Virus record (IMG/VR): IMGVR_UViG_3300025276_000002
Source of the DNA: an uncultured virus (IMG/VR IMGVR_UViG_3300025276_000002)
Lineage: Duplodnaviria > Heunggongvirae > Uroviricota > Caudoviricetes
Length of the DNA: 64,000 nucleotides
Reading direction: 5' to 3' (one strand)
Below the pieces are notes generated by a model. That model worked only from the letters and a program-made list of their open reading frames with translations, had not been told where the DNA came from and searched no databases. Positions 30,609-52,409 of this stretch are shown in pieces. Position numbers and translations under genes: made by a program. The stretch's first letter is position 1; each line of letters opens with the position of its first letter.

Positions 30609-33251
30609 TTATTTAAAGCAGTGTACACTACTTAACATTTCATTTAAATCATACTCTCCATACACTATACCAAACTGCTTAGGTGATAGCAACAGGTTTC
30701 TTTGATCTTCATCAAGCTGTGATTGGAACTCTTCATAAAGCTTCTGAAGGATATCTTCCTCAAATATCTTGATAAACTCCTCTCGAATAATACGGTTAAA
30801 TCTTCGAGTGTAACAACAGTGAGCAGCAAGAGAGTCATGCACCATTAATAAGTGATCTATCTTCTCAGATTCGCATCTCAAAGCAACAGCTTGGACCAGA
30901 CAACTGTCAAGACTATGCACTATATCTGGAGCTACAGATGACTTCATTTTACCTACATCAAGAACCTTTTGCAACACACCGTTTTTATCCTCAGCCATTT
31001 TAGGTAGCTTGACAGTGAAGCGTCTTGCATCACCCATGAAGTCAGCATGTACTAAAATGTTCTCCATCTTGTACTTAGCCATTGTAGCCTTAAAGCCCAT
31101 AGGTGTAGTCCACTTCACAGGTTTACCACAATTACCCAATACATCAGCAACATGTACAAACCATTCCATCACCTGACCAGCTCCAGTAATTACCTGATTG
31201 ATTGAATCAAAGATCATATTACCCATGTAACTAGCAGCTTGACCTGTCCCTTCACATCTGAAGTTATCCTCCCACTGCTTCTCAACAATGAACTCAGAAC
31301 AGTGTTGGATATTACCATATCGAGTACCTGAATAGAATTTAACCATAACTGGCTTCTTAACAAGGTTGCGAATAATAAAGCTTAATCTTACCTGCTCTAA
31401 ACGGTCAAAGTCTAGATAAGTATTTAAGTATAATTCTTCCAGTGTGTCAAACTCTTTTGAACGGCTAATAATCATCTCTTGGGTTCTTGATGAAAGTATA
31501 TCATCTTCTTGCCCATTTAAGACGTTCTGTAGGCGCTCTAAGACGTTAACTCGACCTAACCAATCCTGAGCCATAGGGTCTTCTTTAAAAACGCTTAGAA
31601 GGTTGTCTAGAACCTTTCCTGCCACAGCCATATAGAGATCTTGAGCATCTGGTAATGCACATAAGTTTGTATGTCTAGCTCCGACAATATCTCTAGTCAT
31701 TGCAGAAAGGATCTGAGCACCTGAACAACTCGCATCATTAGGATCAGGCAAGTGAGATACAAACTTGTAATCACCATTTTTTGCAAAGTATTCTTTCCAT
31801 GCAGCCCACTCAAAAGCAGCAGCTAAGAATTGTAAAGGCTTATCAGCAGACATCCACTTACACTTTTCAAGAGGATTAACAGAGCATTCAATAATCCAAT
31901 CATTGTTCTCATTGATCCATTTTATTGAATCTTGTTCAGTCAGCTTATCTGTCTTGATACCATTGCCTGAGTCGTTACCCCAGTGATTACAAAGGGTCTT
32001 GATAATACCATACTCACCACCCTTGCCATCACCATCATGATCAAGTGGTAAACCTACAGAGAACTCCAAAACAGCCTTCTGAAAATCAGCACCTTGAAGA
32101 TTAATACCTGACATAGCAGAAGGATATACACGACTACGACCATCTGTGCTTAAAGGCCAATATAGCTCATCTTCTTCCTTAACCATCTCAGTAATCTGTA
32201 TGGTAGCTTCTAAGGCACGATCTAAAGACTTCTTACCTGCAACCTTCTTTACATATGCTTCTTTCCTGTCAACCCATTTGAAGAACTCTTTACGCTTTTC
32301 ATTAGAGGCTTCATCTTGGAAAGCAAGAACCATTGCCTTCTTCTTCTTGCCTGTCTTCTTATCAACCTTTTCACCTTCTACCTTCTCCCAGATATGTTCA
32401 TCAAGTTCCTTATCAATTGGACAAGGTTCATTGAAAGACTTGGGTAGGTTATTAAGAAATAACTTACCCATCTCATCAGGACGAGAAGCTTGTAGCGTCT
32501 TGTAGAGTCCAAAGATCCTTTGATTGATCCTGTGAGGAGTCTTTTGCATATGGTTAATAGATGCAAACAAACGATCATCCTCTGGAAGCTCATGCTTATG
32601 CTTGCCCTTAACAAAAGGATTAGTTGCTTTACCAACTTCTGATAAATATCCACCACCTATCATGTCTTTCCAATCATCAGGTTCACAAACCATTGGCATC
32701 TTCTTAGCTGAAACAGTTGCAAATAGTTCTTCATTGTCATTTACGAGAGTATTCCAATTATCAGTTGCAGAGACTTTCCACTCTGTCACGGACTTACTAA
32801 TACGCTCTAGTTCTGTACGGAACAACTTAAGAGGCTTTAGACCTTCTAATGTTAAATCTAATAACATAATACCTGCTGACACAGAATCAACTACAATCTT
32901 TTTATCCTTAGAGAAAGTATCTTCTGATCTCCCTGCTTTAGAAAGAAGACTGTTACCGATACTAGTTGCAATACGTGTCACAGGTAATGAAGCTTCCATT
33001 GATAAACTAGACACAAGAGCTTTAATACCTATGAATGCAACTTCTTTATGTTCCAACTCCTTAGTAAGTTTAAAGAATGATGCTCTCTTACGTTGAACAG
33101 TGTCATGCTTGTTTTTGATAGCTGCCTCAACAAGATTACACATGTCAACAAGAATTGTAGCATCTCGGTTATTATCCAAGTTCTCTAGAAAACCTTCGAT
33201 AGTAGTTTCATTGAAGTACATCTTTTCTAGTTCTAACTGCTTTTCTCTCAT
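30609..33251 (-). CDS. T7-like single-subunit RNA polymerase
   Basis: PMVCEP.DW..GGY, DGRSRVY, QGAD, motif A DASCSGAQ, motif B RNLVKKPVMVKFYS, PDIVHSLDS and motif C VHDS. Confidence 0.95.
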   Translation of the reverse strand: MREKQLELEKMYFNETTIEGFLENLDNNRDATILVDMCNLVEAAIKNKHDTVQRKRASFFKLTKELEHKEVAFIGIKALVSSLSMEASLPVTRIATSIGNSLLSKAGRSEDTFSKDKKIVVDSVSAGIMLLDLTLEGLKPLKLFRTELERISKSVTEWKVSATDNWNTLVNDNEELFATVSAKKMPMVCEPDDWKDMIGGGYLSEVGKATNPFVKGKHKHELPEDDRLFASINHMQKTPHRINQRIFGLYKTLQASRPDEMGKLFLNNLPKSFNEPCPIDKELDEHIWEKVEGEKVDKKTGKKKKAMVLAFQDEASNEKRKEFFKWVDRKEAYVKKVAGKKSLDRALEATIQITEMVKEEDELYWPLSTDGRSRVYPSAMSGINLQGADFQKAVLEFSVGLPLDHDGDGKGGEYGIIKTLCNHWGNDSGNGIKTDKLTEQDSIKWINENNDWIIECSVNPLEKCKWMSADKPLQFLAAAFEWAAWKEYFAKNGDYKFVSHLPDPNDASCSGAQILSAMTRDIVGARHTNLCALPDAQDLYMAVAGKVLDNLLSVFKEDPMAQDWLGRVNVLERLQNVLNGQEDDILSSRTQEMIISRSKEFDTLEELYLNTYLDFDRLEQVRLSFIIRNLVKKPVMVKFYSGTRYGNIQHCSEFIVEKQWEDNFRCEGTGQAASYMGNMIFDSINQVITGAGQVMEWFVHVADVLGNCGKPVKWTTPMGFKATMAKYKMENILVHADFMGDARRFTVKLPKMAEDKNGVLQKVLDVGKMKSSVAPDIVHSLDSCLVQAVALRCESEKIDHLLMVHDSLAAHCCYTRRFNRIIREEFIKIFEEDILQKLYEEFQSQLDEDQRNLLLSPKQFGIVYGEYDLNEMLSSVHCFK

Positions 33252-33836: not shown

Positions 33837-35738
33837 TTGATTTTAAATAATGCACATGAATTTGAAGAGGCGATTTCTCCATCTCAAGCCTCTAAGAAAC
33901 GTACTTCACGTAGAGCTAGTAGAAAGCGTGAGGAGATAGTTGGTAACACAGCTTGCCCTGCTTGCCGTGAGAAAGGAGGAGACAGCACAGGTAATCACAT
34001 GATGATCTTTGAAAGCGGTAAGGGGTATTGCAACCGATGTCCTAAACACTTTACCAAAGAGGAAGTAGAGGCCGCTAAGAAGCCTCAGGCAAGCCGTAGA
34101 GCTCGCAAATCATATGGTGGCAGTTCAGGTTATAATAATTATAACAAAGGTCTGACGCTGGATGACATGCCTCATTTAGGCTTCTCAGGAGATAAGCTCC
34201 GAGGAATCACTGCTGAGACAGATAGACGATTTGGTATCAGAACAGAATTCGACACTTCATCAGGCAGAGCGTTGGCAAGATATTATCCATATTATTTAGA
34301 AGATGAGTTGTATGGATATAAAATGCGTAAATTGCCTAAAGATTGGGGAGCTGCTGTTGGTACTTTAAATGGTACAGACATGTTTGCTTGGAACTTGCTT
34401 AGTGGCAAGTATCAAGTATTGTTAATCGTGGAAGGTGAAGAAGACTGTGCATCCTTGTATCAATTGCACAAGGCTATGAATTTCAGATCTACAAACAGAC
34501 GAATCAAAAGATCTGAAGTAGATGTAGTTTCTTTACCATCTGGTGCAAAAGGTGCTCACAAAGCATTGCTGCATCATATTGAGGAAATCTCTCGATACCA
34601 GAAAGTATTCTGGGCAGGTGATAACTATAAGATTGACACAGAAGGCAAAGCTTGCTTAGAAGCTGCTGTTCAGATAATTGGTGTAGATAAGCTTTACATC
34701 ATGGAGTACCCTGACCGTAAGAAAGATATGTCAGATATTCTTAAGATCGGTGGTGAAGATGCTATAGATATTTATAGTGAAATGTACTTCGGAGCTAAGA
34801 AATATTCTCCATCTGATATTATTGATGGCAAAGACTTAGAGCTTGCTGATATAGAGAAAGATGTTGTGGTGGGATATAGTTTACCTTTTCCAAATCTGCA
34901 AGATCCGATGCAAGGAATGCGACTTTTTGAGCATACGATCTTGACGAGTTCAGCAGGATCTGGCAAGTCAAGCCTTATAACAGCTATAGCTCATCACATG
35001 TCAACAGAACATGGTTGGATGGTTGGAAATATTTTCCTAGAAGAGAAGGTTGTTAAGAGTCAACAGCGATATATTGCATATGATAATAGTGTTGCCCTTA
35101 ATGAATACCGTAAGGATTTTGGGATAATCCCTCTGGAAGATAAGCTAAAGACAAAAGCTGAGATCATTGATAATATGATGTTCTTGGATCACTCAGGTTC
35201 AATTGATCCAGATGTCCTTATGAACAAGATACGTTATTTGGTTGCCAAAGGTTGCAAGCTTATTATACTTGACCACATCTCTCTTGTTGTAACAGGATCA
35301 GATGATGAACGAAAAGATATAGACACTTTGCTTGAGAAGATATACAGATTTGTAGAACATACGCCTGTGCATATCCTATCTGTCGTACATATTAATCGTG
35401 GAGATTCAAAAAAGGATGTATCAAAAGGCGCAGAGATAACACCTAATCTATTACGTGGATCTCAGTCTATAATTCAGTTAGGATTTTCGGTTGGAGCTAT
35501 CGAAGGATGGAACGAAGATGAAGACTATGGCAATACCCGTTTCATCAGGTGGCTGAAGATACGAGAGACAGGTACATTAGGACTAACCAAAGGTTGTCTA
35601 GAATATAACACCAAGACTGGCAGGTTCAGTTACAACCCTAGCTTACATAAGAAAGATGTTGAAGCTGCTATCAAGGAACGGGATAAAGAAGACTTTATTC
35701 CAAAGGTAGGAAACTCTTTTAACAATAAAGCGGTTTAA
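33837..35738 (+). CDS. T7 gp4-like primase-helicase
   Basis: Zn ribbon CPAC...CNRC, TOPRIM EGEED, Walker A AGSGKS, ILDHIS and LRGS; TTG start after AAGGAGG. Confidence 0.92.
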   Translation: MILNNAHEFEEAISPSQASKKRTSRRASRKREEIVGNTACPACREKGGDSTGNHMMIFESGKGYCNRCPKHFTKEEVEAAKKPQASRRARKSYGGSSGYNNYNKGLTLDDMPHLGFSGDKLRGITAETDRRFGIRTEFDTSSGRALARYYPYYLEDELYGYKMRKLPKDWGAAVGTLNGTDMFAWNLLSGKYQVLLIVEGEEDCASLYQLHKAMNFRSTNRRIKRSEVDVVSLPSGAKGAHKALLHHIEEISRYQKVFWAGDNYKIDTEGKACLEAAVQIIGVDKLYIMEYPDRKKDMSDILKIGGEDAIDIYSEMYFGAKKYSPSDIIDGKDLELADIEKDVVVGYSLPFPNLQDPMQGMRLFEHTILTSSAGSGKSSLITAIAHHMSTEHGWMVGNIFLEEKVVKSQQRYIAYDNSVALNEYRKDFGIIPLEDKLKTKAEIIDNMMFLDHSGSIDPDVLMNKIRYLVAKGCKLIILDHISLVVTGSDDERKDIDTLLEKIYRFVEHTPVHILSVVHINRGDSKKDVSKGAEITPNLLRGSQSIIQLGFSVGAIEGWNEDEDYGNTRFIRWLKIRETGTLGLTKGCLEYNTKTGRFSYNPSLHKKDVEAAIKERDKEDFIPKVGNSFNNKAV

Positions 35739-35750
35739 TAAGGAGGAACT

Positions 35751-37061
35751 TTGAATGAATTAAATAATCCAACTCCTCCATCACGTACCCAGCAACGCAG
35801 GACAGAGAGACGTAGGAGAGACAGAGAAAGGCGTAAACTACTTAAGCAATGCAATGATACTACTAATCAGATAGAAGCTGTTACAGCCCCTGTCAGCAAG
35901 GCTCATAGACGTTTAACTGTAACTGATCTGGATGATGATCAACTTGAAGCCTATAATGGTATTAAAGAGTGGTGGACTGTTCAGCAGAACATAGGTGGAA
36001 CGGCTAAGCCTGTTGTACTATCGGGGTATAGTGGTACAGGTAAGTCAACACTGATGAGCTTAGTATTATCTGACCTTGAAAATCCAGATGGAAGCAAACC
36101 ACATATCAAGTCAGCAGCGTATACAGGTAAAGCAGCAGATGTCCTTCGTAAGAAGGGTGTTGCTGCCGACACACTGCACTACTTACTTTATAATTGGCTA
36201 CCAGAGGGTAATCGATTAGTCCCTATCAAAAAGGACAGATATGAAGTGGGTGCAGATCTTATAGTTGTAGATGAAGCATCTATGTTGGCTAATGATTTGA
36301 GACAAGACTTGGAAGAACTTTGTATCCCTATCGTATATTTAGGTGATATTGGACAGCTCAGCGCTATTGTAACTGACAAGAAAGATAAGCGTCCTAACGT
36401 AATGTCAGAGCCTGACTTTATGCTTACACATGTACACAGACAAGCTCTAGAGAGCGGTATTATATCAGTAGCTACAGATGTACGCCTTGGTAAGAATGTA
36501 GACAAAGGTGTCTATGGTGTTAAGAAAGATATGATTAAGCTAGGTAGCGATGCTCTTAATGATAAAGATCTTATAGCTAATGCTGATACTGTTATTTGTT
36601 ATTACAATAAGACCAGACACCTCTATAACGACATGATACGAACTTATAGAGGATTCAGTGGATCATTTCCAGAAGTAGGTGAACGGCTCATATGCATACG
36701 TAACAACAGAGAGATGGGACTAGTAAATGGCCTTGTAGTCTTTGTTAAACATGTTGTATATGAGAACAATACACTTATTATGGATCTTGTTGATGAGGTT
36801 GGAAAAGAGTTCTATAAGGTGCAGGTACATCCTGAATACTTCCTTGGAAAAGAACATCCACCTATGACAGGTAAATTGACTAAGAATTACTTTGAATTTG
36901 GATATTCCATAACTTGCCATAAAGGACAGGGGAGTTCATTTGGAGAGATTGTTGTCATAGAGGAGAATATGAAAGGACGTATTTCCGAGAAGAGACGTTG
37001 GATGTACACAGCTATTACTCGTGCAGAATATAAGTGTACGTGGATAAGTAAATTTAGATAA
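35751..37061 (+). CDS. SF1 helicase (Dda/RecD-like)
   Basis: GYSGTGKS, VDEASM, GDIGQL, HRQA, TCHKGQGS and YTAITRA. Confidence 0.92.
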   Translation: MNELNNPTPPSRTQQRRTERRRRDRERRKLLKQCNDTTNQIEAVTAPVSKAHRRLTVTDLDDDQLEAYNGIKEWWTVQQNIGGTAKPVVLSGYSGTGKSTLMSLVLSDLENPDGSKPHIKSAAYTGKAADVLRKKGVAADTLHYLLYNWLPEGNRLVPIKKDRYEVGADLIVVDEASMLANDLRQDLEELCIPIVYLGDIGQLSAIVTDKKDKRPNVMSEPDFMLTHVHRQALESGIISVATDVRLGKNVDKGVYGVKKDMIKLGSDALNDKDLIANADTVICYYNKTRHLYNDMIRTYRGFSGSFPEVGERLICIRNNREMGLVNGLVVFVKHVVYENNTLIMDLVDEVGKEFYKVQVHPEYFLGKEHPPMTGKLTKNYFEFGYSITCHKGQGSSFGEIVVIEENMKGRISEKRRWMYTAITRAEYKCTWISKFR

Positions 37062-37073
37062 GGAGTATAATGT

Positions 37074-37571
37074 ATGAGTGAATCTTATATCATCAATTTA
37101 ATAACTGAGTCTGCTAAGGTGGAGATTGAAAATCAAATTAACCACTTGGAAAGTATGTCTAAAGAAGATGAATATAAAGAAAGGTACTCAGCTATGTTAC
37201 AAGGTGCTAAAACGGTAATATGGTTGTTAGAGAATGAATCTATTGCTAAGCAAGGAACTTATGCATTCTTGAACCACTTAGACAGGGATCAGTTGGAATA
37301 TGCTATCTCAGCGGCTAAGGAGATCAAGAAGCTGAAAACAGATATAGGTAAGGTTGAGCTGTTTGGCATCTTTGGAGGAGATAAAGGATCAGAGTGGTTT
37401 TATGATGAGGGTTTAGCAAAAGAGGCATATCTTCGTGCAGCATCTGAGAGTTTATCTGGACCATGCCCAGAGGTCAGTTTTGAAAGTAAGAAAGTTCCAG
37501 CAGAAGAGTTGGAAGAATATCTGAAAAAGGATGAAATAGGTATCGCATTGGGGCTTATAGAGAAGCCTTGA
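37074..37571 (+). CDS. Hypothetical protein
   Basis: 165 aa with AAGGAG RBS. Confidence 0.7.
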   Translation: MSESYIINLITESAKVEIENQINHLESMSKEDEYKERYSAMLQGAKTVIWLLENESIAKQGTYAFLNHLDRDQLEYAISAAKEIKKLKTDIGKVELFGIFGGDKGSEWFYDEGLAKEAYLRAASESLSGPCPEVSFESKKVPAEELEEYLKKDEIGIALGLIEKP

Positions 37572-37614
37572 TGTCTCAAGAAGAATAAGCCAAACAACTA
37601 AGAGGAGGTAAACT

Positions 37615-37767
37615 ATGAAACTAACGATAGATCAAATACTGGTCATCCTGAGAGCATTGGACTATTACGAAGGCAGGGAAGAAAATACAATGGAAGAAGA
37701 TCTGAAGGTACGTACCATTGAAGATATCTTAGAGGAAGAAGGTTTTAAACTATCTCAAGAGGAATAG
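37615..37767 (+). CDS. 50-aa hypothetical protein (below the ORF-track cutoff)
   Basis: MKLTIDQILVILRALDYYEGRE...KLSQEE*, after GAGGAGG. Confidence 0.65.
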   Translation: MKLTIDQILVILRALDYYEGREENTMEEDLKVRTIEDILEEEGFKLSQEE

Positions 37768-37797
37768 TCACAACAGCTAAGAGAAAAGGAGGAAAGT

Positions 37798-38073
37798 ATG
37801 TATTTTAGTTATTGTCCAGATGCTGGATTTGAGATACATGATACAGCACTGGAAGCAGAAAAATCAGCTCAAGATTCATTAGATTATTTCAGAGATAACG
37901 CATGTGATGGTTGGTCGGAAGAGGTTGATGGCATTTGTTGGGGAACAGTTTCACAAGATACACAAAAGGTCTTAGAAATGTCAAGAGAGGATGCCGAAAA
38001 AGAAGGTATACTTGTATCGAAAGATTGTTGTGGATTCGTAGATTATTCATTAGTCAATACTAAAAGCCATTGA
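37798..38073 (+). CDS. Hypothetical phage protein
   Basis: 91 aa with AAGGAGG RBS; DGWSEEV..ICWG motif. Confidence 0.7.
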   Translation: MYFSYCPDAGFEIHDTALEAEKSAQDSLDYFRDNACDGWSEEVDGICWGTVSQDTQKVLEMSREDAEKEGILVSKDCCGFVDYSLVNTKSH

Positions 38074-38123
38074 ATGTAGTTAGTTAAATAATAATCAAGC
38101 CAAACAACTAAGAGGAGGGTGTA

Positions 38124-40400
38124 ATGGCAGAGGTACAATATAAGTTTCCAGATAACATCAAAGATATCTTAGTATGTGGTGATATTGAGGCTAATGGTCT
38201 TCTGGAAGATAAGAAAGAGTGGAAAGGCGGTCAACTAATTGTCCATAAGAAAGTGGACAGGGTGTGGATGGCATGTTACAAGATTCCAGAAGCAGGTGGT
38301 GCATGTTATGACTTCATTGATGATGAAATGCTGAAGTTACACAAGAGAGCACTACTACGTCACAATAGACAACACGGACGAAGTGATACTAAGCTTCTCC
38401 CACTAAGTGCTTTACCAAGTTTCTGTGAACATGTTGGAATCCAAGTCATGCACTTTGGTATGAAATATGATTTCCCTCTTATGGAGATGCTTTTAGATTG
38501 TGTAGTTCCAAGAGAGAAAAGATGGGATACATTCGTACAAAGCTCAACACAATTCTGTGATAGAGACTTAGTAGAAGGTTCTAAGTCTGGGGCTCACAGT
38601 TTGGAAAGTTTCGCAATTAGATTAGGAAACGGCTTTAAGGTTGAACATGAAGATTGGTTAAACTTTTCAATTGATATGTATAGACGCTGTTGGCGAGATG
38701 TTGAGATCCAATGTGAGGTATACGATTACCTGCAAGAAGAGAGAGAACGTGATCGATTAGAGTGCAATATCGATTGGACAGGGCCACTTCAAACTGAAAT
38801 GGATGCAGCATACTGGATCTCATGGTCAGAAATCCACGGGTTTCCTATTGATGAGAAGTATGCACGTAGTCTTGTTAAGAAGTGGGATGAACACCTAGCC
38901 GATATTGAAGATAAGCTTTTACCAGATATGCCATTCAGATTATCATTTGATGGATGCGGTTCTCCAATAAACTTTGAAACTTATTGTGAAGGTATGTTGA
39001 AGAATACTAACCTATCCAAGATACCTCTTGGCTGGTGCTGGGAAGAGGGTGCAGCTAATAAACCTACACCTGTTTGGAATCCATTCAAGAAAGATGGTGA
39101 TCCTAGTGAGAATGTTAAGAACTACTGGTTAGGCAAAGATGCCACAGATTATGTTCCAGAAGAGCCTGAGCGCTTCTCTAGCCCTGCTGTATTGGATGAT
39201 AATGGTAAAGTGATACAAAAGGCTGTCCGAGCTAGAAAAGCCCGTCCTGCTAAGGAGGCGAAGCCTAGACGACCTAACTGTTATGAAGATGATGCAGGAT
39301 TAACAGAACCACCTCTAGTCAAGATGGATGAGACTGATGTTGCAGGACCATATACCAGAATACAATGGAACCATTATAACCTTGGATCTAACAATCAGGT
39401 TATCGAATATTTGACTAGATATACGGATTGGACACCTACTGAATATACAGAGAAGGGGAGTCCGAAGCTTACGGAAGATAGTTTTGATTCGATAGGTGGA
39501 GATGGTGTAGGTGCTTTAATCAAAGATTACCTTATAACCAAATCTCGTAGAACTAATGTGGAGAACTTCTCTCGACCAGATAAAGGTTGGTTAAATCATA
39601 TTAGAGATGATGGTCGTGTGACCGCTATTAATAATACAATGGGAACCCCCACTACTCGAAGTAGACACAGTGTGATTGTAAATGTCCCATCTGGATCTGC
39701 TAGGTGGGGAAAAGAGATGAGAAAGTGTTGGGTAGCAGCAGAAGGTTGCAGACAACTAGGTATAGATGCAGCAGCGATCGAAGCAAGAGCTATGGCATTC
39801 GAAATAGATTGTGAAGATACTAGACACGAGATAGTTGATGGAGATTTTCACACTTTAGTCTGGAATCAGATACTAGAGTTCTCATCTAGTCGAGGAAATA
39901 CAAAAGGTATTGAATATGCACTTCTCTATGGAGCTTCAGATGAAAAACTAGGGACACTAATTGATGTTGAAGGTTGTCTTAACAGATTTGCCTCTGAAGA
40001 TAAGTTATTAGAAAGGGGGTGGATAAAAGATGTTCATGGAAAGTGGAGACACAAGCAATGGAATCCTAAAAAAGAATCACTTACTTTAAAACAAGCGCAA
40101 TGCACTGTTTGTGGATCTATTATTCGGATGAGAATAATGAGCGGATTACAACCACTAGGTAAAGCTATTGAGAAGTTTGTTAAACTATCTGAAAAAGGTT
40201 ACTTAAAGGCTCTTGATGGAAGAAAGCTTAATTGCAGATCCTCACACAGTGCATTCAACCTCAGGTTGCAATCAACAGGTAGTATTATCTGCAAAACCGC
40301 AATGATACTTACAATGGAAATGCTTCAAAAAGAGGGATTGGTGGTGGTAGGAAGATGCCACGATCCTAAGAAACATGTAGAGCTTTACACCTTTTACCAT
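38124..40400 (+). CDS. polA: Family A DNA polymerase, exon 1
   Basis: ExoI DIEANGL, TPTTRSRH, motif A DAAAIEAR, GDFH, motif B RGNTKGIEYALLYG and LQSTG; ends FYH. Confidence 0.93.
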
Positions 40401-41215
40401 AAATAATATTGTGGTGCTCAGTGGTGACATTGAGTAGAAAACCCTATTAATTGACTGGGAATCTTAGCTAGGCAAACTTCACATGTCGAGATGATATCAG
40501 GAGAGAGTTAGTAGAAGACAATCAGCAGCTATAGGAGAAATTATAATGAAAGAATATAAAGGTTACAGAGTACTAGAAGATGGTACAGTTTTAAATAGAG
40601 ATGGAAGCATTAAGAGGTGGTCGGAAAATCAAAAAGGTTATCTTATATCTGCAATTTCTGTGGAAGGAAAGAGGATAGCGATATCACATCATAGAATGGT
40701 TGCGGCAGCTTTTTATGGAAAATGTCCAAAGAAGCATGAGGTGAACCATAAGGATAACGATAGGAAAAACAACCACCCTTCTAATTTAGAATATGTAACA
40801 AAATCGAAGAACAATCAGCAATCTTGGGACTCAGGAAATAGATGTGCCACAGGTATAAACAATGCGAATTGTAAAGTATCAGAAAAAGATGTGCATATGG
40901 TTTGTAAACAAATAGAGAATGATTTCAAACTAAACGTTTCAGAGTTATCGAGAAAAACAGGAATATCACGAACCACTATTACTAAGATCAAATTCAAAGA
41001 GCAGTGGTCACATATCTCTAAGCATTATAATTTCTAACTATAGTCCACAGACTATCGAAAGGCAGCAGAATAAGCTGAACTGAGTAGAGTAGATTACAAG
41101 TGTAGTCGAAACATAGGGCATCTCTAAGAGATGGTGATATAGTCGCGTCCCATCAGAAATGGTGGCAGATCTTAAAAGATCGGGCATGGAATAACGAACC
41201 ATGTTGAAGGTAACG
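40401..41215 (+). ncRNA. Group I intron in the DNA polymerase gene (815 nt)
   Basis: P1: UACCAU pairs with GUGGUG (U.G at the splice site). Core elements AAUUGACUGGGAA, AAUCAGCAG, CACAGACUA and GAUAUAGUC. Terminal G at 41215; splicing restores motif C H-DE. Confidence 0.92.
40546..41037 (+). CDS. Intron-encoded HNH homing endonuclease
   Basis: HRMVAAAF...VNHKDNDRKNNHPSNLEYVT..N; bracketed by the stem GCTATAG/CTATAGT. Confidence 0.9.
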   Translation: MKEYKGYRVLEDGTVLNRDGSIKRWSENQKGYLISAISVEGKRIAISHHRMVAAAFYGKCPKKHEVNHKDNDRKNNHPSNLEYVTKSKNNQQSWDSGNRCATGINNANCKVSEKDVHMVCKQIENDFKLNVSELSRKTGISRTTITKIKFKEQWSHISKHYNF

Positions 41216-41557
41216 GATGAGTTGCAAATGGGAGTACCTGAATATCTGTATGATCCTGATAAGGTATTTAATATAGATTTTTCTGAATATGATTTGACAA
41301 CTAAAGAAGGTAAAAAAGCAGCAACAGCGAAAGCTGAAAATATTGTTTCAAGATTCTCTAAGAGAGAGTACAGAACAAAAGGCTATGTATGGTCTCGTCC
41401 TAAAGTAGATTTAGAAAAAGGGACAGCAACCATATCTCATACAGTGGTAGCGGATATCTCAACTCAGGCATTTCTTGAAGCAGGTTTAAAGTATGGATTT
41501 ACAATACCTGTGCTTGCTGAATGGGATTCAGGTCAAAATTGGTATGATTGTCACTAA
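41216..41557 (+). CDS. polA: Family A DNA polymerase, exon 2
   Basis: DELQ...EAG...IPV.AE...GQNWYDCH* is a T7-like PolA C-terminus. Confidence 0.92.
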   Translation, partial: DELQMGVPEYLYDPDKVFNIDFSEYDLTTKEGKKAATAKAENIVSRFSKREYRTKGYVWSRPKVDLEKGTATISHTVVADISTQAFLEAGLKYGFTIPVLAEWDSGQNWYDCH

Positions 41558-41600
41558 GAGCCACCAACATTTTAAACAAAATAGAAGGATAATATAAATT

Positions 41601-41825
41601 ATGTCTAAATCAGATAAAGGATTTTACTACGTAAATGTAAACTCAGAGTTACTATTGGATCTGTGTGAATGCACAGAAGCATTAATATTACTGGTGTCAA
41701 GCTACGTAAGAGAGTTAAATGAAACAGGTACTTATGATGGAATTATGGTGATGCCATCAGATACTGATGAGAATGGTGATCCGCTGATCTCTATTGGCTT
41801 CCAGACTTACGAAAACAAATACTAA
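41601..41825 (+). CDS. Hypothetical protein
   Basis: 74-aa ORF within the operon. Confidence 0.6.
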   Translation: MSKSDKGFYYVNVNSELLLDLCECTEALILLVSSYVRELNETGTYDGIMVMPSDTDENGDPLISIGFQTYENKY

Positions 41826-41867
41826 TCAATCAAACATTTTAAATTAATCAAATAAGGAGAACATTAT

Positions 41868-42845
41868 ATGTCATTCATTTTAAACAACGCTAAAGGCAAT
41901 ACTGAGTACACCCCTGACCCGTTTTTAGATACAGGTGCAGAGTATGAGGCAAAATTAATCGGCATTGTAGAAACAGGCAAGCACCAGCAAGAAGACTTTG
42001 ATGATCCTAGCAAGGTATCAGAAAAGCTAGAGTGTCTTATCACATATGAGCTAGTTGAAGAGGAGACACGAGTGACTCGTGGTGCAGAAGGCTCTGAGTA
42101 TACAGTTCCTCGCCTATTCACTAAGTTCGACAAGTTCTCATCACATGAGCTGTCTTCTCTGTACAAGCAGTGTAAGACCGCTAACCAAGATTGTGTAACA
42201 CAAGATGGCTTAGATATTACAGCAGCTCTGGGTCAGCCTGTGATGCTTGTATTGAAGAATAACAAGAAAGGTGATCGTCAGAACATTGCAGAAGTTAAAG
42301 GTGTTCCAGTTAAGTTCCGCAGCAGCATTGGTGAAGCAGAAGGCAAGCCTTTCCTTTACACTTGTTCTGTAAATGCAGGTGCTCACGTAGGTACTATTGA
42401 AGATGTTCCAGTATGGATGCTTAAACGTGCAGTGGATAAATCTTTATACCCTGAACAGTTCCCTAATCTTGAAGAAATTGAAGACTACATTGAAGCAGGT
42501 GGTAAATCGTCTAAGACTGCTGGTGAAGAATTAGAAGGTGATCGTGCTCCTGCTAAAGAGGAAAAGAAACCTGCTAAGAAAGCTCCAGCTAAGAAAGAGA
42601 AAGCAGAAGAGGTTGTAGAGGAAAAAGCTGAAGAAGCTCCAGCAGAGAAATCTACACGTACTCGTCGTAAGAAAGCTGAGCCAAAAGCAGAAGCTGACCC
42701 ATATGCAGACTTAGATGAAGCAGCCCTTGAAGATTTGCTAATCGAGAAAGGCATCTCCGATGAAGACTTAGATGCAATTAGTGAAGGTGCTGATTCAGAT
42801 GAAGCATACCTATCAGCATTGAAAGCTAAACTTACAAGCCTTTAA
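41868..42845 (+). CDS. Probable ssDNA-binding/annealing protein
   Basis: Beta-rich N-terminal domain, Lys/Ala/Glu linker and acidic tail; between polymerase and exonuclease; strong RBS and terminator. Confidence 0.55.
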   Translation: MSFILNNAKGNTEYTPDPFLDTGAEYEAKLIGIVETGKHQQEDFDDPSKVSEKLECLITYELVEEETRVTRGAEGSEYTVPRLFTKFDKFSSHELSSLYKQCKTANQDCVTQDGLDITAALGQPVMLVLKNNKKGDRQNIAEVKGVPVKFRSSIGEAEGKPFLYTCSVNAGAHVGTIEDVPVWMLKRAVDKSLYPEQFPNLEEIEDYIEAGGKSSKTAGEELEGDRAPAKEEKKPAKKAPAKKEKAEEVVEEKAEEAPAEKSTRTRRKKAEPKAEADPYADLDEAALEDLLIEKGISDEDLDAISEGADSDEAYLSALKAKLTSL

Positions 42846-42856
42846 TCTGTAATGAT

Positions 42857-42894
42857 GTCCGTGGATCACAAGAGAGGTTCACGGACTTACTTTT
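42857..42894 (+). terminator. Intrinsic terminator
   Basis: GTCCGTG...CACGGAC followed by TTACTTTT. Confidence 0.7.
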
Positions 42895-42908
42895 AAAGGA
42901 GGAAAAGA

Positions 42909-44315
42909 ATGGCATTTATATTAAACAATGCACACTTAGATTATGAAGCAAATATTGATAAACGGTTTGACTTTGTAGAAGGTGGTTTACGTCTCTTAGT
43001 AGATGCAGATCCAATTGCATATCTAGCAGCATCAGCCTGTGAATCAGCAACACATCACATCAAGATCAATGATAAATCCACCTATCAGGTGGTAGGTGGA
43101 AAGACTGAATTGTATACAGCCTTAGGCTTCGAGAACAAGGCTCAGTTTGAATCAATGTTAGAAACTAACCCTAGCATTACTTATGAGATTGAAGTCCGTA
43201 CAGACGACCAGAAGAACATGAAGCACACCATTAAGCGTCAAGTTGCTAAACTTGTTAAACGTGTTGGTGCAGGTTCAGTTGAGCTGTATCTGACAGACAG
43301 TAAGAGTAACTTCCGTATTACGGAAGAGATTGCTACAATCTTAAAGTACAAAGGTAATCGTTCTTCAGATAGCAAACCTAAGCTCCTCAGTGAGGCTAGA
43401 AACTACTTACTCGAAGAACTTGATGCAATCATGTGCTATGGTATGGAAGCCGATGACAAGCTTGCTATAGAGCATAGAAAGGCATGGGCTCAAGCCATGA
43501 AAGATGCTGAAGAGTTTTATATAGGTGAAAAGGTTGATACTGAGACTTTAGAGAAGAAAGCTATGGAGTTGACAACAACTGTATTAGCATCTATTGATAA
43601 GGACTTGAAGCAGGTAGCTGGTAAATACATTAATCCAGATGAAGACTTAGGTATTGAAGAAATCTTTCCACTAGGTCACATGTTCTTACAAGAGAAAGGT
43701 AAGTCTAAGAAGTTACGATTCAATGGCCTTAAAGCGTTCTATGCTCAGCTAATCATCGGAGACAACTGCGATAACATTCCAAGTGTATACTTCTGTGGTG
43801 ATACCAAAGCTTATGAAGTTCTGAAAGATTGTAAGAATGAGGAAGAGTTATTCAAAGCTGCATTACGTGAAACATATGAAGGATTCCATCGTGAGATGAT
43901 TAAGTCACTTGATCCTATTATTGATGGCAAAGTTGAGACAGCACTTGAAACAGGCTTGCATGGTAATGACAATAAGAGCAATCGCACTAAACTACGTAAG
44001 AAGTTCAAAGACTATTATATTAGCAATGCTGCATATAAAGATAAGCATTATTACCCTTGGTGGTGCTATGTTGAGAATGAAGATGGTACGGTCTCTAAAG
44101 AACTGAAAGAAGGTATTGACAGTTCAGATATACAAACCATTTCACCTATTGAACACATGATTGAGGTTGCACGATTAGTTTACATGCTTGAAAAAGAGCC
44201 TTGTGAAGATGGTAGTCATTTATGGACACCACCTAATGAGAAGTGGATCAAAGATGTTCAAGATGAGTATATTGAAAAGAATCTTCTTAGAATCGATACA
44301 GAGTGGGTATTATGA
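42909..44315 (+). CDS. 5'-3' exonuclease (T7 gp6-like)
   Basis: VDAD, NFR, YKGNR...KP, EADD, SIDKDL and GDNCDNIP. Confidence 0.9.
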   Translation: MAFILNNAHLDYEANIDKRFDFVEGGLRLLVDADPIAYLAASACESATHHIKINDKSTYQVVGGKTELYTALGFENKAQFESMLETNPSITYEIEVRTDDQKNMKHTIKRQVAKLVKRVGAGSVELYLTDSKSNFRITEEIATILKYKGNRSSDSKPKLLSEARNYLLEELDAIMCYGMEADDKLAIEHRKAWAQAMKDAEEFYIGEKVDTETLEKKAMELTTTVLASIDKDLKQVAGKYINPDEDLGIEEIFPLGHMFLQEKGKSKKLRFNGLKAFYAQLIIGDNCDNIPSVYFCGDTKAYEVLKDCKNEEELFKAALRETYEGFHREMIKSLDPIIDGKVETALETGLHGNDNKSNRTKLRKKFKDYYISNAAYKDKHYYPWWCYVENEDGTVSKELKEGIDSSDIQTISPIEHMIEVARLVYMLEKEPCEDGSHLWTPPNEKWIKDVQDEYIEKNLLRIDTEWVL

Positions 44316-51452: not shown

Positions 51453-52409
51453 ATGTCAGAACAAGAATTAGCAGTATCAGTAAAAACCCAGCAAGCAGCA
51501 TCACTATATGGCATTGCATCAGTTATCGTTGGCACAGGCAAAGCACCTGATAAGTCAACACTTAAGACAATTGTAAAACAGACACGTAAAGCAGTCCTTG
51601 CAGATCTAGGTCAGGATGCTGGCTGGGCAATTATGCGAGCTAATAAAGAGCCAATTGAACAATACTTGAAAGGTGTGAAGAATGATCCCCGATTAGATGG
51701 TATTCAAACATTTAAAATGTATCAGGCAGCAGTGGATGACTTAGCAGAGTCTTGCATGAAAGGCTACAAAGCTTTATTTTAGCAGGAGGAAGGTATGAGA
51801 GAGAAACCTCGTTCCCACTTCGGATTCATAAAGCATACTAAGCCTAAGCCTCATGTCCTGTGGGGCACTATGGCTGAGATAGCTGTACAGATAGGTGGCA
51901 ATCGTAGAAACCTCTATCTAGCTTGGAATGGCAAGCGTAATGGGTATCTTGGCTACTTTCCTATCAAGTCAGAAGAAGATATAGCTAAGTATTATCAACC
52001 ACCTAAGCCTCCACCTCCAATTAACAAAGAAGCTCTGCGAGAACAGAAGCGAGAAATGTGGAACGATTGGAAGATTACCATGTATAAAGACTGGAAAAGA
52101 GGTGAACCATATCCTCAAGAGTCAAGCAGGGTGGTTGTAGGAACTGCGTATCAGGTTCAAAAGCATATCAATATAGACAGAGCTAACATGAACAAGTTGA
52201 TAATGAGTTACGAAGGACGGACACCACCTGCTTATTCCAATATGTGGACATATAAGGGATGGAGAATTGCTAGAATACAAAAGAAAGGTGTATCAGCAGT
52301 TCCTCAGGTCAAAATATACATGACAAGGAATACAAGAGAGATTAGGAAAGAGTATCGAAGATTACGTGTTGAAGAGTACAAACAACGTAATAAGATAGGT
52401 GACTCATGA
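51453..52409 (+). CDS. Two hypothetical proteins (51453-51782; 51795-52409, basic, possibly DNA-binding)
   Basis: ORFs with RBSs; no family recognised. Confidence 0.6.

What the first reader, a model, noticed from the sequence alone, without database searches (positions are those of the whole stretch)
33837..42935. Shared N-terminal ILNNA peptide on three unrelated replication proteins
Seen: primase-helicase MILNNAH, SSB-like MSFILNNAK and exonuclease MAFILNNAH; the SF1 helicase begins MNELNNP. The DNA differs only at third codon positions (ATT TTA AAT AAT GCA / ATT TTA AAC AAC GCT / ATA TTA AAC AAT GCA), which favours selection on the peptide. Inference: a short docking motif, analogous to clamp-binding motifs or SSB tails, recruiting these proteins to a common hub such as PolA, or a shared degron. 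I know of no description of it.
Basis: partly seen in the sequence, partly recalled or inferred. Interest (0 to 1): 0.75.

Follow-up and report, generated by a model that had tools for sequence, protein, structure and literature searches.

The report
Shared start tag on replication proteins
Three unrelated DNA-replication proteins of this marine phage and its relatives begin with the same short floppy peptide, most likely a shared docking label whose reader has not yet been shown.

Summary
ILNNA occurs three times in the window's six-frame translation, against 0.06-0.09 expected. Each copy opens a replication gene whose start is fixed by an in-frame stop and a Shine-Dalgarno site. The genes are a T7-type primase-helicase, a PHROG-862 OB-fold SSB-like protein and a FEN 5'-3' exonuclease. 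The SF1 helicase's ELNNP is not conserved.

In Colwellia phage 9A, Shewanella phage KASIA and 86 metagenomic orthologues, all three families begin [M/F]-[IL]-[ILV]-x-[N/T]-x. Hydrophobic residues and Asn are conserved, not AU-rich codons. Distant homologues lack the extension. AlphaFold2 leaves the tag disordered in both proteins modelled.

The SSB-like and exonuclease tags change in step (8 genomes, p=0.004). Their homologues in SP6/K1-5-like phages share a different tag, F-D-F-G-A, in 7 of 7 phages.

So this is a peptide-level docking tag. Its reader is not shown. I favour the SSB-like protein itself over PolA: the tag would be its self-association peptide, copied by its clients.

Literature searches found no description. 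This scan has noted the SP6-type tag (e1-121421) and other private tags on other DNA. I rate it a new variant of a known kind.

The parts
33837..33857 (+). Tag of the primase-helicase: TTG ATT TTA AAT AAT GCA CAT = M-I-L-N-N-A-H
   Evidence: Shine-Dalgarno AAGGAGG lies 5 nt upstream and an in-frame TGA sits directly before the TTG. Orthologues start M-[ILx]-[ILV]-N-N (29 of 29 start with M; N at position 4 in 21 of 29).
33837..33953 (+). N-terminal extension of the primase-helicase (residues 1-39): the tag, then a basic Ser/Arg/Lys linker, ahead of the zinc finger (CPAC at residues 40-43)
   Evidence: BLASTP to the SP6 primase starts at window residue 34 = SP6 residue 3. The 12 distant homologues P0096-P0107 begin at the zinc finger.
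33837..35738 (+). T7 gp4-type primase-helicase gene (633 aa)
   Evidence: Pfam DnaB_C 4.7e-11. 56-64% identical to the primases of phages 9A and KASIA.
41868..41894 (+). Tag of the SSB-like protein: ATG TCA TTC ATT TTA AAC AAC GCT AAA = M-S-F-I-L-N-N-A-K
   Evidence: AF2 pLDDT is below 50 for residues 1-15. 12 of 12 family members carry [MF]-[IL]-[ILV].
41868..42845 (+). SSB-like protein (325 aa, PHROG 862): tag; conserved F-x-P-D-P; beta-rich OB-like core 22-213; disordered charged linker 214-275; three-helix C-terminal domain 284-324
   Evidence: PHROG 862 at 2.6e-9. hhalign to the SP6/K1-5 gene-16 family gives 93.6% probability, E 2e-7. AF2 model. Weak OB-fold/SSB matches. BFVD gave 43 matches at E<=1e-3, including DUF669 proteins.
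42909..42935 (+). Tag of the exonuclease: ATG GCA TTT ATA TTA AAC AAT GCA CAC = M-A-F-I-L-N-N-A-H
   Evidence: AF2 pLDDT is below 50 for residues 1-11. 45 of 45 clade members carry the tag. A 96%-identical relative (L010) keeps FILNNAHL with 3 synonymous changes.
42909..44315 (+). FEN-type 5'-3' exonuclease gene (468 aa)
   Evidence: PHROG 107 exonuclease 1.9e-48. Pfam 5_3_exonuc is weak. BLASTP to the K1-5 exonuclease gives 7e-30. AF2 mean pLDDT 87.8.
35751..37061 (+). SF1 (Dda-like) helicase. NOT a tag carrier; its MNELNNP is a chance resemblance.
   Evidence: Pfam AAA_30/UvrD_C_2. The N-termini of 3 orthologues do not keep it.
38124..41557 (+). PolA in two coding pieces (38124-40406 and 41201-41557) around an HNH endonuclease gene (40546-41037).
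   Evidence: Pfam DNA_pol_A and HNH_3. Alignment to the intact 9A PolA places the break at YH|DE. A weak group I intron match lies at 40971-41166.

Best explanation
The tag [M/F]-[IL]-[ILV]-x-N-x is a short linear docking peptide on a flexible N-terminal tail.

Most likely mechanism (inferred, not shown): it is the peptide by which the phage's OB-fold SSB-like protein (PHROG 862) contacts a neighbouring copy of itself on single-stranded DNA. The flap exonuclease carries a copy of that peptide, and so, in this clade, does the primase-helicase. They can therefore dock on the same acceptor site of the SSB-like protein at the lagging strand.

Shown here:
- The tag is real and selected at the peptide level.
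- It is conserved across the clade and disordered in two models.
- It is restricted to these three genes.
- The SSB-like and exonuclease tags change in step, both within the clade and between this clade and SP6-like phages.

Inferred: that the tag binds anything at all, that the acceptor is the SSB-like protein, and that this protein binds ssDNA.
For: 1. Non-chance and restricted to three genes.
- ILNNA occurs 3 times against 0.06-0.09 expected.
- I scanned Shine-Dalgarno-preceded starts with a loose tag pattern. In the window it hit 5 of 163: the three genes plus two starts that are not gene starts.
- In the other 36 kb of the same phage it hit 0 of 95.
- In the whole KASIA genome it hit 3 of 358, exactly the three orthologues.
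- In 9A bases 1-98,999 it hit 5 of 221: the three orthologues, one internal start and one small ORF.

2. Conservation.
- Exonuclease, 45 of 45: position 2 is I/L/V in 44, position 3 is I/V/L in 43, position 5 is N in 31 and T in 10.
- SSB-like protein, 12 of 12.
- Primase, 29 of 29 begin with M; position 3 is I/V/L in 28; N at position 4 and at position 5 in 21 each.
- Homologues at about 30% identity lack the extension (P0058-63, P0096-107).

3. Peptide-level, not RNA-level selection.
- Within-genome differences are all synonymous third positions.
- Val (GUN) is common at position 3.
- Lys never occurs at position 5 of the exonuclease or SSB-like tags, although its codons are as AU-rich as Asn's.
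- The KASIA and L008 primases use CTC GTT and CTC ATA AGC.
- No other well-translated gene of the window has the tag.

4. Disorder. pLDDT is below 50 for SSB-like residues 1-15 and exonuclease residues 1-11, beside well-folded cores.

5. Coupling of the SSB-like and exonuclease tags.
- Exact permutation over 8 genomes gives p=0.0039 (identity) and 0.001 (BLOSUM).
- Without the window, 7 genomes give 0.031 and 0.0083.

6. The same rule in a second deep lineage with another tag.
- The SSB-like protein is homologous to SP6/K1-5 gene 16. All 7 of those proteins are PHROG 862, as is the window's protein. hhalign gives 93.6%, E 2e-7.
- In 7 of 7 SP6-like and Colwellvirinae phages, that protein and the FEN exonuclease both begin with F-[DN]-[FY]-G-[AG].
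- These were the only 14 six-frame matches in the 7 loci.
- In K1-5, 6 of 7 tag residues are identical and 5 of those use different codons.

7. Where the upstream SSB is gp2.5-like (PHROG 112), the exonuclease has no extension (L019).

8. Published support for an SSB-centred reading (PMC13687109; section 9 and passages read).
- A phage DUF669 SSB has an N-terminal region (1-20), an OB fold and an acidic flexible tail.
- AlphaFold3 places the N-terminal region of one copy on the middle region of the next.
- AP-MS with that SSB enriched the neighbouring helicase and exonuclease.
- The window's model matches DUF669-labelled proteins in BFVD at E 2.4e-4 to 1.4e-3.
Against: - No binding of any kind was shown here.
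- The AF2 monomer models do not dock the tag on its own protein.
- The primase tag does not co-vary with the exonuclease tag. Over 14 genomes p=0.18, and 0.59 without the window. Nor does it co-vary with the SSB-like tag (6 genomes, p=0.225).
- SP6-like primases carry M-A-I-I-N-N directly in front of the zinc finger. The primase's copy may therefore have a separate origin and role.
- The co-variation tests are small. Most genome pairs were matched only by equal contig length. Related genomes are not independent.
- The SSB label rests on weak fold matches: best PDB Foldseek E 0.01 and PrgE at Z 5.3.
- Pfam finds no DUF669 or any other family, and the PDB sequence profile search finds nothing.
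- In Xanthomonas phage Xp10, protein 37L is a structural neighbour of the SSB-like protein. It shares no visible tag with the exonuclease 36L.
- The published N-terminal contact in the DUF669 SSB is itself a prediction.
Confidence: 0.4

Rival explanations
1. The reader is the phage PolA, as in the T7 replisome. There, the tails of helicase-primase and SSB both dock on the polymerase. The exonuclease tag would tether the flap nuclease to PolA and so recreate the Pol I arrangement.
For: - The module is T7-like: a gp4-type primase-helicase, a family A polymerase and a FEN nuclease.
- PolA is the core replisome protein without a tag.
- In T7 the acidic C-terminal tails of the helicase contact basic patches on the polymerase (PMC8472574, passages). 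The gp2.5 tail anchors to the polymerase's front basic patch (PMC12339929, passages).
- The clade's SSB-like protein lacks the acidic tail ending in an aromatic residue that its SP6-like homologues keep. Some other link to the polymerase is therefore needed.
Against: - SP6-like homologues keep a gp2.5-style acidic tail ending in F or Y and also carry an N-terminal tag. This suggests the N-terminal tag does a different job from polymerase docking.
- A PolA reader predicts that all three tags co-vary, yet only the SSB-like and exonuclease tags do.
- The tag is hydrophobic and Asn-rich, not acidic. The T7 mode of binding cannot be carried over directly.
Confidence: 0.15
2. Only the SSB-like protein and the exonuclease share a true tag. 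The primase's M-I-L-N-N is a displaced copy of the strand that leads into the zinc ribbon. Its identity with the other two in this phage is convergence or chance within a narrow consensus. This reading is compatible with the main explanation for the other two proteins.
For: - SP6, K1-5, Era103 and CPP1m primases begin MAIINNIPCP, MAIIQNVPCP, MAIVNNIGCP and MGQIVKNIPCP.
- Clade primases such as P0068 begin MIINNNIPES and keep a second I-V-x-N-x-x-C-P before the zinc finger.
- There is no significant primase co-variation.
- Position 2 of the primase tag tolerates R, Q or K (8 of 29), unlike the other two families.
Against: - In this clade the primase string has been detached from the zinc finger by a linker of about 30 residues. 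This happened in the same lineage in which the SSB-like and exonuclease tags look like it.
- Rare states coincide in single genomes. The window lineage has L at position 3 in all three. Contig c75105 has E at position 4 in all three.
- This scan's notes report another SSB-primase-exonuclease triple in a crAss-like phage (e1-5931406; not checked here).
Confidence: 0.25
3. The tag is read by a host protein, for example a protease adaptor (a shared degron), a chaperone or a host replication factor.
For: - The tag is terminal, disordered and short, as degrons and host-hub motifs are.
- No phage-encoded sliding clamp or other obvious hub was found among the 60 window proteins scanned.
Against: - The tag was swapped wholesale (M-I-I-x-N versus F-D-F-G-A) between phage lineages that infect overlapping groups of gamma-proteobacteria. 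Host hubs such as the clamp or ClpX are conserved.
- The tag does not resemble the beta-clamp motif QL[SD]LF. That consensus is recalled, not tested.
- A timed degradation of SSB, primase and nuclease has no precedent in lytic T7-like phages (my own knowledge).
Confidence: 0.1
4. The shared start acts on gene expression, not on protein binding. It could be an unstructured AU-rich initiation region, an operator for a translational repressor, or a nascent-peptide effect on early elongation.
For: - The window's tag codons are almost pure A/U.
- The tag lies at codons 2-8, where such effects act.
- T4 RegA sets a precedent for a repressor of several replication mRNAs (recalled).
Against: - Copies differ at synonymous sites only.
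- G/C-containing codons encode the same residue classes in relatives.
- Val is frequent, and Lys is absent at position 5 of the exonuclease and SSB-like tags.
- In two window genes the tag is shifted 6 nt from the start codon by M-S or M-A.
- The SP6-type tag is GC-richer and is kept with different codons.
- The major head protein gene and other genes with strong Shine-Dalgarno sites lack the tag.
- No Rfam family reaches its threshold at these sites.
Confidence: 0.06

Closest known systems
T7 replisome tails: the acidic C-terminal tails of gp4 helicase-primase and gp2.5 SSB, read by gp5 polymerase (PMC8472574 and PMC12339929, passages read)
   Same: The replisome type is homologous. Unrelated replisome proteins, including the SSB and the helicase-primase, carry the same kind of short disordered terminal peptide as a docking label.
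   Different: Here the tag is N-terminal and hydrophobic plus Asn, not acidic with a terminal aromatic residue. It is also on the flap exonuclease. The SP6-like homologues carry both a gp2.5-style C-terminal tail and an N-terminal tag.
F-D-F-G-A tag shared by the gene-16 (PHROG 862) protein and the FEN exonuclease of SP6/K1-5-like and Colwellvirinae phages. I saw it here in 7 of 7 phages. This scan had noted it earlier as e1-121421. It was not found in the papers searched.
   Same: The same two homologous protein families. The tag is at the same position, ahead of F-x-[NP]-P-[ED] in the SSB-like protein and ahead of the FEN core. It is maintained at the peptide level with different codons.
   Different: The tag sequence is entirely different. 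In those phages the primase does not carry the SSB/exonuclease tag. Those SSB-like proteins end in an acidic tail with F or Y, whereas the window's ends in a three-helix domain.
DUF669 phage SSB Gp63 of the 'Healer' system (PMC13687109; abstract, section 9 and passages read)
   Same: The architecture matches: an N-terminal tail of about 20 residues, an OB-fold core, then an acidic flexible region. The published AlphaFold3 model puts the N-terminal tail of one copy on the next copy. AP-MS enriched the neighbouring helicase and exonuclease. The window's model matches DUF669-labelled proteins by fold.
   Different: There is no Pfam DUF669 match here. That paper does not describe partner proteins carrying a copy of the SSB's N-terminal peptide. 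Its partners are a Sak4-like recombinase and a Cas4-type nuclease, not a T7-type replisome.
T4 gp32 N-terminal B domain (cooperativity peptide with the LAST motif), recalled from my own knowledge
   Same: An N-terminal peptide of a phage SSB that binds the neighbouring SSB and gives cooperative ssDNA binding. This is the mechanism I propose for the tag on the SSB-like protein.
   Different: The gp32 peptide is basic (Lys/Arg/Ser/Thr). To my knowledge no gp32 partner carries a copy of it. gp32 partners use its acidic C-terminal domain.
Bacterial SSB C-terminal tip (DDDIPF) as a hub motif for many genome-maintenance proteins. The motif is named in a passage of PMC13687109; the rest is recalled.
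   Same: A terminal peptide with a hydrophobic tip on a flexible tail organises SSB-centred protein traffic.
   Different: There the SSB carries the tag and the clients carry the pockets. Here the SSB-like protein and its presumed clients all carry the same tag, which implies competition for one acceptor.

Membership tests
T7-type acidic C-terminal docking tails (gp4, gp2.5) | The tail is at the C-terminus, is acidic and ends in an aromatic residue | tested here: not met
   The tags are N-terminal and uncharged. The primase ends ...FNNKAV and the SSB-like protein ends ...KLTSL. The SP6-like homologues do end ...DAEY, DKEF or EEEF.
T7-type acidic C-terminal docking tails (gp4, gp2.5) | The same kind of disordered terminal peptide is shared by SSB and helicase-primase | tested here: met
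T7-type acidic C-terminal docking tails (gp4, gp2.5) | The tail binds the family A DNA polymerase | not testable with these tools
It needs peptide-PolA binding assays.
PHROG 862 (SP6/K1-5 gene-16 family) | A profile match over the core | tested here: met
   PHROG 862 at E 2.6e-9, residues 22-142. hhalign A3 versus A10 gives 93.6%, E 2e-7 over 151 columns. All 7 SP6-like proteins are PHROG 862.
DUF669 phage SSB (Pfam PF05037) | A match to the Pfam model | tested here: not met
   None of the 13 family members matched it at E<=10.
DUF669 phage SSB (Pfam PF05037) | An OB-fold core flanked by an N-terminal tail and an acidic flexible C-terminal region | tested here: inconclusive
   The AF2 core 22-213 is beta-rich, with a disordered N-terminus and a disordered linker at 214-275. 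Best PDB Foldseek E is 0.01 to PrgE and SSBs. VIA gives Z 5.3. BFVD DUF669-labelled proteins match at E 2.4e-4 to 1.4e-3. The Atlas reports a DUF2815-like model at TM 0.69.
DUF669 phage SSB (Pfam PF05037) | Binds single-stranded DNA | not testable with these tools
   Needs EMSA with purified protein.
T4 gp32 B-domain type cooperativity peptide | An N-terminal peptide of the SSB on a flexible tail | tested here: met
T4 gp32 B-domain type cooperativity peptide | Basic Lys/Arg/Ser/Thr composition (the LAST motif; consensus recalled) | tested here: not met
   The tag is M/F-I/L-I/L/V-x-N-x.
T4 gp32 B-domain type cooperativity peptide | Mediates SSB-SSB contact and cooperative binding | not tested
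   No homo-oligomer model or assay was made here.
Bacterial beta-clamp-binding motif | The QL[SD]LF / QLxLxL pattern (recalled) | tested here: not met
   By inspection of the tag consensus: there is no Gln and no hydrophobic residue at positions 4-5.
T7 gp4-type primase-helicase | An N-terminal Cys4 zinc finger plus a DnaB-like helicase domain | tested here: met
   CPAC...CNRC at residues 40-68. DnaB_C. Aligned with the SP6 primase-helicase at 5e-30.

The most novel reading that the evidence does not exclude
T7-like replisomes built around a PHROG-862 SSB use an 'SSB-mimicry' address code. The SSB polymerises on ssDNA through its N-terminal peptide. The enzymes that must work on SSB-coated lagging-strand DNA each carry a copy of that same peptide and plug into the free acceptor site. 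These are the flap exonuclease everywhere and, in the 9A/KASIA clade, also the primase-helicase. Peptide and acceptor sit in one protein, so whole lineages can swap the code in concert (M-I-I-x-N here, F-D-F-G-A in SP6 and K1-5). That would give each phage group a private, non-cross-reacting replisome wiring.
Probability: 0.3. Interest if true: 0.8.

Novelty: new variant of a known kind. Interest (0 to 1): 0.6.

Why it matters
Replisomes are held together by short terminal peptides: the T7 tails, the bacterial SSB tip and clamp-binding motifs. This tag would be a further code of that kind. It is N-terminal and uncharged, and it includes the flap nuclease.

It links an uncultivated marine phage clade to the well-studied phages SP6 and K1-5. 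There the homologous protein pair carries a different tag, and genetics and biochemistry are easy.

If the tag is the SSB's own self-association peptide copied by its clients, it gives a simple, testable rule for how nucleases and primases find SSB-coated DNA, and for why such tags change in step.

It also gives a functional lead for PHROG 862, a widespread phage family listed as 'unknown function'. Practically, a tag that is conserved and fixed at the start of the protein marks the true start codons of these genes.

Tried and rejected
1. Complex prediction. PolA in two chains (A7 residues 1-759 and A8) was folded with the primase tail (A5 residues 1-39) as partner. The verdict was 'no answer', score 0.01 against a mark of 0.32, and the controls were not run. 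This is no evidence either way.

2. Co-variation of the primase tag. It was not significant against the exonuclease tag (14 genomes, p=0.18/0.22; 0.59/0.66 without the window). It was not significant against the SSB-like tag (6 genomes, p=0.225).

3. SF1 helicase as a fourth carrier: rejected.

4. Close DNA relatives. Megablast of the module against named phages found no match. The window's own assembly is not held. G001 is the same phage and adds no orthologue.

5. Harvest of further loci.
- Viral contigs with the single exonuclease gave 1 locus.
- Viral contigs with alignment A1 gave 6 loci.
- Viral contigs with A3 gave 3 loci, none from a new lineage.
- Metagenome contigs gave 12 loci, of which 5 belong to the clade.
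- Genome contigs gave 2 loci, of which 1 was useful.

6. Naming the SSB-like protein.
- Pfam found nothing.
- The PDB sequence profile search gave 0 matches at E<=10.
- PDB Foldseek gave nothing at E<=1e-3.
- The VIA wide search gave Z<=6.2, with weak OB and small helical-bundle rows only.

7. Generality beyond these clades. Pseudomonas phage KIL4 shows no shared tags, and its exonuclease begins at the FEN core. Xp10 proteins 37L and 36L share no tag.

8. RNA element at the tag sites. Rfam at gathering threshold found only a group I intron elsewhere in the window.

9. A hidden sliding clamp or other hub. Pfam or PHROGs scans of 60 window proteins named none. 38 ORFs listed, most under 100 aa, were not scanned.

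10. Literature.
- 'Colwellia phage 9A' gave 7 papers, seen as a listing only. I read passages of the KASIA genome paper PMC8541194, and none mentions the tag.
- 'short linear motif' + bacteriophage + replisome + N-terminal gave 1 paper, a beta-clamp review (listing only).
- SP6 + K1-5 + SSB + exonuclease + primase gave 0 papers.
- gp2.5/exonuclease/gp6/N-terminal/interaction/SP6 gave 15 papers, none on this tag judging by title and abstract.
- Supplements were not opened.

Full report
**What the window is.** The window is part of a phage of about 95-100 kb. Structural genes lie on the minus strand, including terminase, portal, major head protein and tape measure. A T7-type single-subunit RNA polymerase lies at 30609-33251 on the minus strand. 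A T7-like replication module runs on the plus strand from 33.5 kb. It holds a primase-helicase, an SF1 helicase, PolA interrupted by an HNH gene, an SSB-like protein, a FEN exonuclease, a RuvC-like resolvase and ribonucleotide reductase. [quoted passage not shown] Megablast found no close DNA match among named phages.

**The observation.**
- The three peptides are present as described.
- ILNNA occurs three times in 127,996 six-frame residues, against 0.06 expected from composition. Across 200 shuffles the mean was 0.085, the maximum 1, and none reached 3.
- Each carrier gene starts at the first start codon after an in-frame stop and 5-8 nt behind AAGGAG(G). For the primase, any later start would remove the zinc finger.
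- The three 15-nt copies differ in four columns. All four are synonymous third positions (P=0.0037 if placed freely).
- The SF1 helicase's MNELNNP is not kept in three orthologues and is chance.

**Conservation.**
- In 9A the three orthologues begin MLINNAD, MIIDNAG and MIINNAV. In KASIA they begin MLVNNNI, MLIKTTG and MIIRTKD.
- Searches of the 5.8-billion-protein collection gave 12 SSB-like relatives, 51 exonuclease relatives and 44 primase relatives at E<=1e-60.
- I tabulated all 12 SSB-like proteins, the 45 exonucleases at 46% identity or more, and 29 primases at 43% identity or more.
- I dropped P0081, P0086 and P0095, which are N-terminally truncated. I set aside the 6 distant exonucleases and 12 distant primases.
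- All tabulated proteins carry [M/F]-[IL..]-[ILV]-x-[N/T]-x.
- In the exonuclease, position 2 is I/L/V in 44 of 45, position 3 is I/V/L in 43 of 45, and position 5 is N in 31 and T in 10.
- In the primase, position 3 is I/V/L in 28 of 29 and N occupies positions 4 and 5 in 21 of 29 each. Position 2 is R, Q or K in 8 of 29.
- In 9 of the 45 exonucleases the tag follows 2-10 extra residues. Where the tag's first residue is M, this may be a mis-called start. Where it is F, as in the window, the extension is real.
- The distant homologues begin directly at the FEN core or at the zinc finger. The tag therefore belongs to a clade-specific N-terminal extension.
- The hits are 90%-identity cluster representatives and are related to each other, so the counts are not independent events.

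**Peptide or RNA.**
- The conserved properties are hydrophobicity at positions 2-3 and a small polar residue, mostly Asn, at position 5.
- Val, with G-containing codons, is frequent at position 3.
- Lys never occurs at position 5 of the exonuclease or SSB-like tags, although its codons are as AU-rich as Asn's.
- The KASIA and L008 primases spell the tag CTC GTT AAT AAC AAC and CTC ATA AGC ACT.
- A 96%-identical exonuclease (L010) keeps FILNNAHL through three synonymous changes.
- In two of the window's genes the tag is displaced 6 nt from the start codon by M-S or M-A.
- No other gene of the window has the tag, including genes with strong Shine-Dalgarno sites.
- A loose pattern applied to every Shine-Dalgarno-preceded start found the three genes plus two starts that are not gene starts in the window (5 of 163). 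It found nothing in the other 36 kb of the same phage (0 of 95). It found exactly the three orthologues in the whole KASIA genome (3 of 358). In 9A bases 1-98,999 it found the three orthologues plus two others (5 of 221).

**Structure.**
- AlphaFold2 with family alignments gives a confident FEN fold (mean pLDDT 87.8) with residues 1-11 below 50.
- For the SSB-like protein it gives a beta-rich core at residues 22-213 with pLDDT around 90. Residues 1-15 and 214-275 are disordered, and a three-helix domain lies at 284-324.
- The primase tag is followed by a basic low-complexity linker of about 30 residues before the zinc finger. No model was made of the primase.

**What the SSB-like protein is.**
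- Pfam and a PDB sequence-profile search find nothing.
- Fold searches give only weak OB-fold and SSB rows: PrgE at E 0.01 and Z 5.3, then SSB and PriB.
- BFVD gives 43 matches at E<=1e-3. Nearly all are uncharacterised phage proteins, and some are labelled DUF669.
- The protein matches PHROG 862, 'unknown function'.
- It is homologous to gene 16 of SP6 and K1-5 and their relatives. All 7 of those proteins are PHROG 862, and hhalign gives 93.6%, E 2e-7 over 151 columns.
- Those relatives end in an acidic tail closing with F or Y. From my own knowledge that is the hallmark of the T7 gp2.5 tail.
- I therefore call the protein 'SSB-like' with moderate confidence. ssDNA binding is not shown.

**Co-variation.**
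- The SSB-like and exonuclease tags are more alike within genomes than between them. Eight genomes give exact p=0.0039 (identity) and 0.001 (BLOSUM). Seven genomes without the window give 0.031 and 0.0083.
- The primase tag shows no such signal against the exonuclease tag (14 genomes, p=0.18; 0.59 without the window). It shows none against the SSB-like tag either (6 genomes, p=0.225).
- Single cases are suggestive. The window lineage has L at position 3 in all three proteins. Contig c75105 (L030) has E at position 4 in all three.
- The tests are small and the genomes are related to each other.

**A second lineage with another tag.**
- I looked at the next-nearest exonuclease relatives. In Vibrio phage AS51 the PHROG-862 protein and the FEN exonuclease both begin with ...FDYGG....
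- The same holds in K1-5, SP6, Era103, Reminis, CPP1m and DT115P1, making 7 of 7 phages examined.
- The pattern F-[DN]-[FY]-G-[AG] has exactly two six-frame matches in each of the seven loci, always at these two N-termini. It has none in the window.
- In K1-5, 6 of 7 tag residues are identical and 5 of those 6 use different codons. The likeness is therefore kept at the peptide level and is not a recent gene conversion.
- The tags sit at homologous positions in both clades. In the SSB-like protein they lie ahead of F-x-P-D-P or F-K-N-P-E. In the exonuclease they lie ahead of the FEN core.
- Where the SSB upstream of the exonuclease is gp2.5-like (PHROG 112), the exonuclease has no extension.
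- KIL4 also lacks tags. Xp10's structural neighbour 37L shares nothing visible with its exonuclease. The rule is therefore not universal.
- After finding this I looked in the scan's notes. An earlier report, e1-121421, had described the same SP6-type tag. Other notes report private terminal tags on replication proteins of other phages, among them an SSB-primase-exonuclease triple in a crAss-like phage. These are unchecked AI notes, except that I reproduced the SP6-type tag myself.

**The primase.**
- SP6-like primases begin M-A-I-I-N-N-I-P-C-P, with the tag-like string directly in front of the zinc finger.
- BLASTP aligns that string with window residues 34-41, I-V-G-N-T-A-C-P.
- The clade's primases thus carry a second, free copy of this string at the end of a new linker. 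P0068, for example, begins M-I-I-N-N-N-I-P-E-S.
- This could be a relic duplication.
- Alternatively, the primase's leading strand was recruited as a tail in the same clade in which the SSB-like and exonuclease tags came to look like it.

**Mechanism.**
- What is shown: there is a conserved, disordered, peptide-level tag, restricted to three replication proteins, and two of the tags are coupled across deep lineages.
- What I infer: both coupled tags fit one acceptor that can change with them. The simplest place for such an acceptor is the SSB-like protein itself. The tag would be its self-association peptide, and the exonuclease, and probably the primase-helicase, would copy it to dock on SSB-coated DNA.
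- A 2026 paper on a DUF669 phage SSB supports this kind of arrangement (PMC13687109, section 9 read). The protein has an N-terminal region 1-20, an OB fold and an acidic tail. AlphaFold3 places the N-terminal region on the next copy. AP-MS enriched the neighbouring helicase and exonuclease.
It remains possible, but it does not explain why SP6-like SSBs keep both a gp2.5-type tail and an N-terminal tag.
- Host-factor, degron and translational readings are less likely, for the reasons given under the rival explanations.

**Novelty and verdict.**
- Shared terminal docking peptides in replisomes are a known kind of thing. Examples are the T7 tails, the bacterial SSB tip and clamp-binding motifs.
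- This one is N-terminal, uncharged and present on the flap nuclease. It has a sister tag in SP6/K1-5-like phages.
- My searches found no description of it (listings and passages only; supplements were not opened).
- The scan itself has seen such tags on other DNA before.
- I rate it a new variant of a known kind. It is of solid interest because it is directly testable in SP6 and K1-5.

Noticed in passing
L032, L034-L039 (Vibrio phage AS51, K1-5, SP6, Reminis, Era103, CPP1m, DT115P1): The PHROG-862 protein (gene 16 of SP6/K1-5) and the FEN exonuclease both start with F-[DN]-[FY]-G-[AG]-x-[VIL] in 7 of 7 phages. These were the only 14 six-frame matches in the loci. In K1-5, 5 of the 6 identical residues use different codons.
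   Followed up: yes
L034:8524-9330 and the other members of alignment A10: PHROG 862, listed as 'unknown function', looks like the SSB of SP6-like phages. The proteins end in an acidic tail closing with F or Y, like T7 gp2.5. The window's homologue lacks that tail and instead ends in a three-helix domain (residues 284-324) behind a 60-residue disordered charged linker.
   Followed up: partly
window 21576-21895 (-), with ORFs 20677-21555 and 21815-23248: A group I intron (Rfam RF00028, 74.6 bits) lies next to an HNH endonuclease ORF and the terminase large-subunit ORF. The terminase gene thus seems to be split by an intron, as is annotated for KASIA.
   Followed up: partly
window 40404-41215 (+): PolA is interrupted exactly at the conserved Y-H|D-E motif by an 0.8-kb insert. 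The insert carries an HNH_3 endonuclease gene (40546-41037). There is only a weak group I intron match (40971-41166; 19.6 bits against a threshold of 50; E 0.021). The 9A PolA is uninterrupted, and the KASIA PolA is annotated in three pieces.
   Followed up: partly
window 33837-33953 versus L035:1260-1290: The primase carries two copies of a hydrophobic-hydrophobic-x-N string. One is at its very start. The other (I-V-G-N) lies directly before the zinc finger. SP6-like primases have only the second, as their own N-terminus (MAIINNIPCP).
   Followed up: partly
window 20677-21555, 23241-23912, 25132-25668, 40546-41037, 52406-53080, 59050-59889: There are unusually many HNH or homing endonuclease genes for one phage: six in 64 kb by PHROGs/Pfam.
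   Followed up: no
L013:2108-4360 (a near-identical relative; exonuclease 99% identical): Between the primase and the next conserved gene this relative has an extra 204-aa ORF and a 541-aa ORF. The window has the 436-aa SF1 helicase there. This may be an insertion in, or a replacement of, the helicase gene.
   Followed up: no
L004:5675-7938 (an IMG/VR relative whose exonuclease is 99% identical): The large ribonucleotide reductase subunit reads as two overlapping ORFs (306 and 467 aa). In the window it is one ORF of 754 aa (45069-47333). This could be a frameshift, an assembly error or a real split.
   Followed up: no
window 30609-33251 (-): A T7-type single-subunit RNA polymerase lies in a genome of about 95-100 kb with lambda-like tail genes. 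It is transcribed divergently from the replication module. The KASIA paper already notes that this is rare for siphoviruses.
   Followed up: no
L027 (Colwellia phage 9A) record 80589-80930, COPG_00095: A 113-aa ORF begins MKEFILANQE, and the rest of its start looks hydrophobic. It was the only annotated non-orthologue that fitted the loose tag pattern in 9A. It is probably chance.
   Followed up: no
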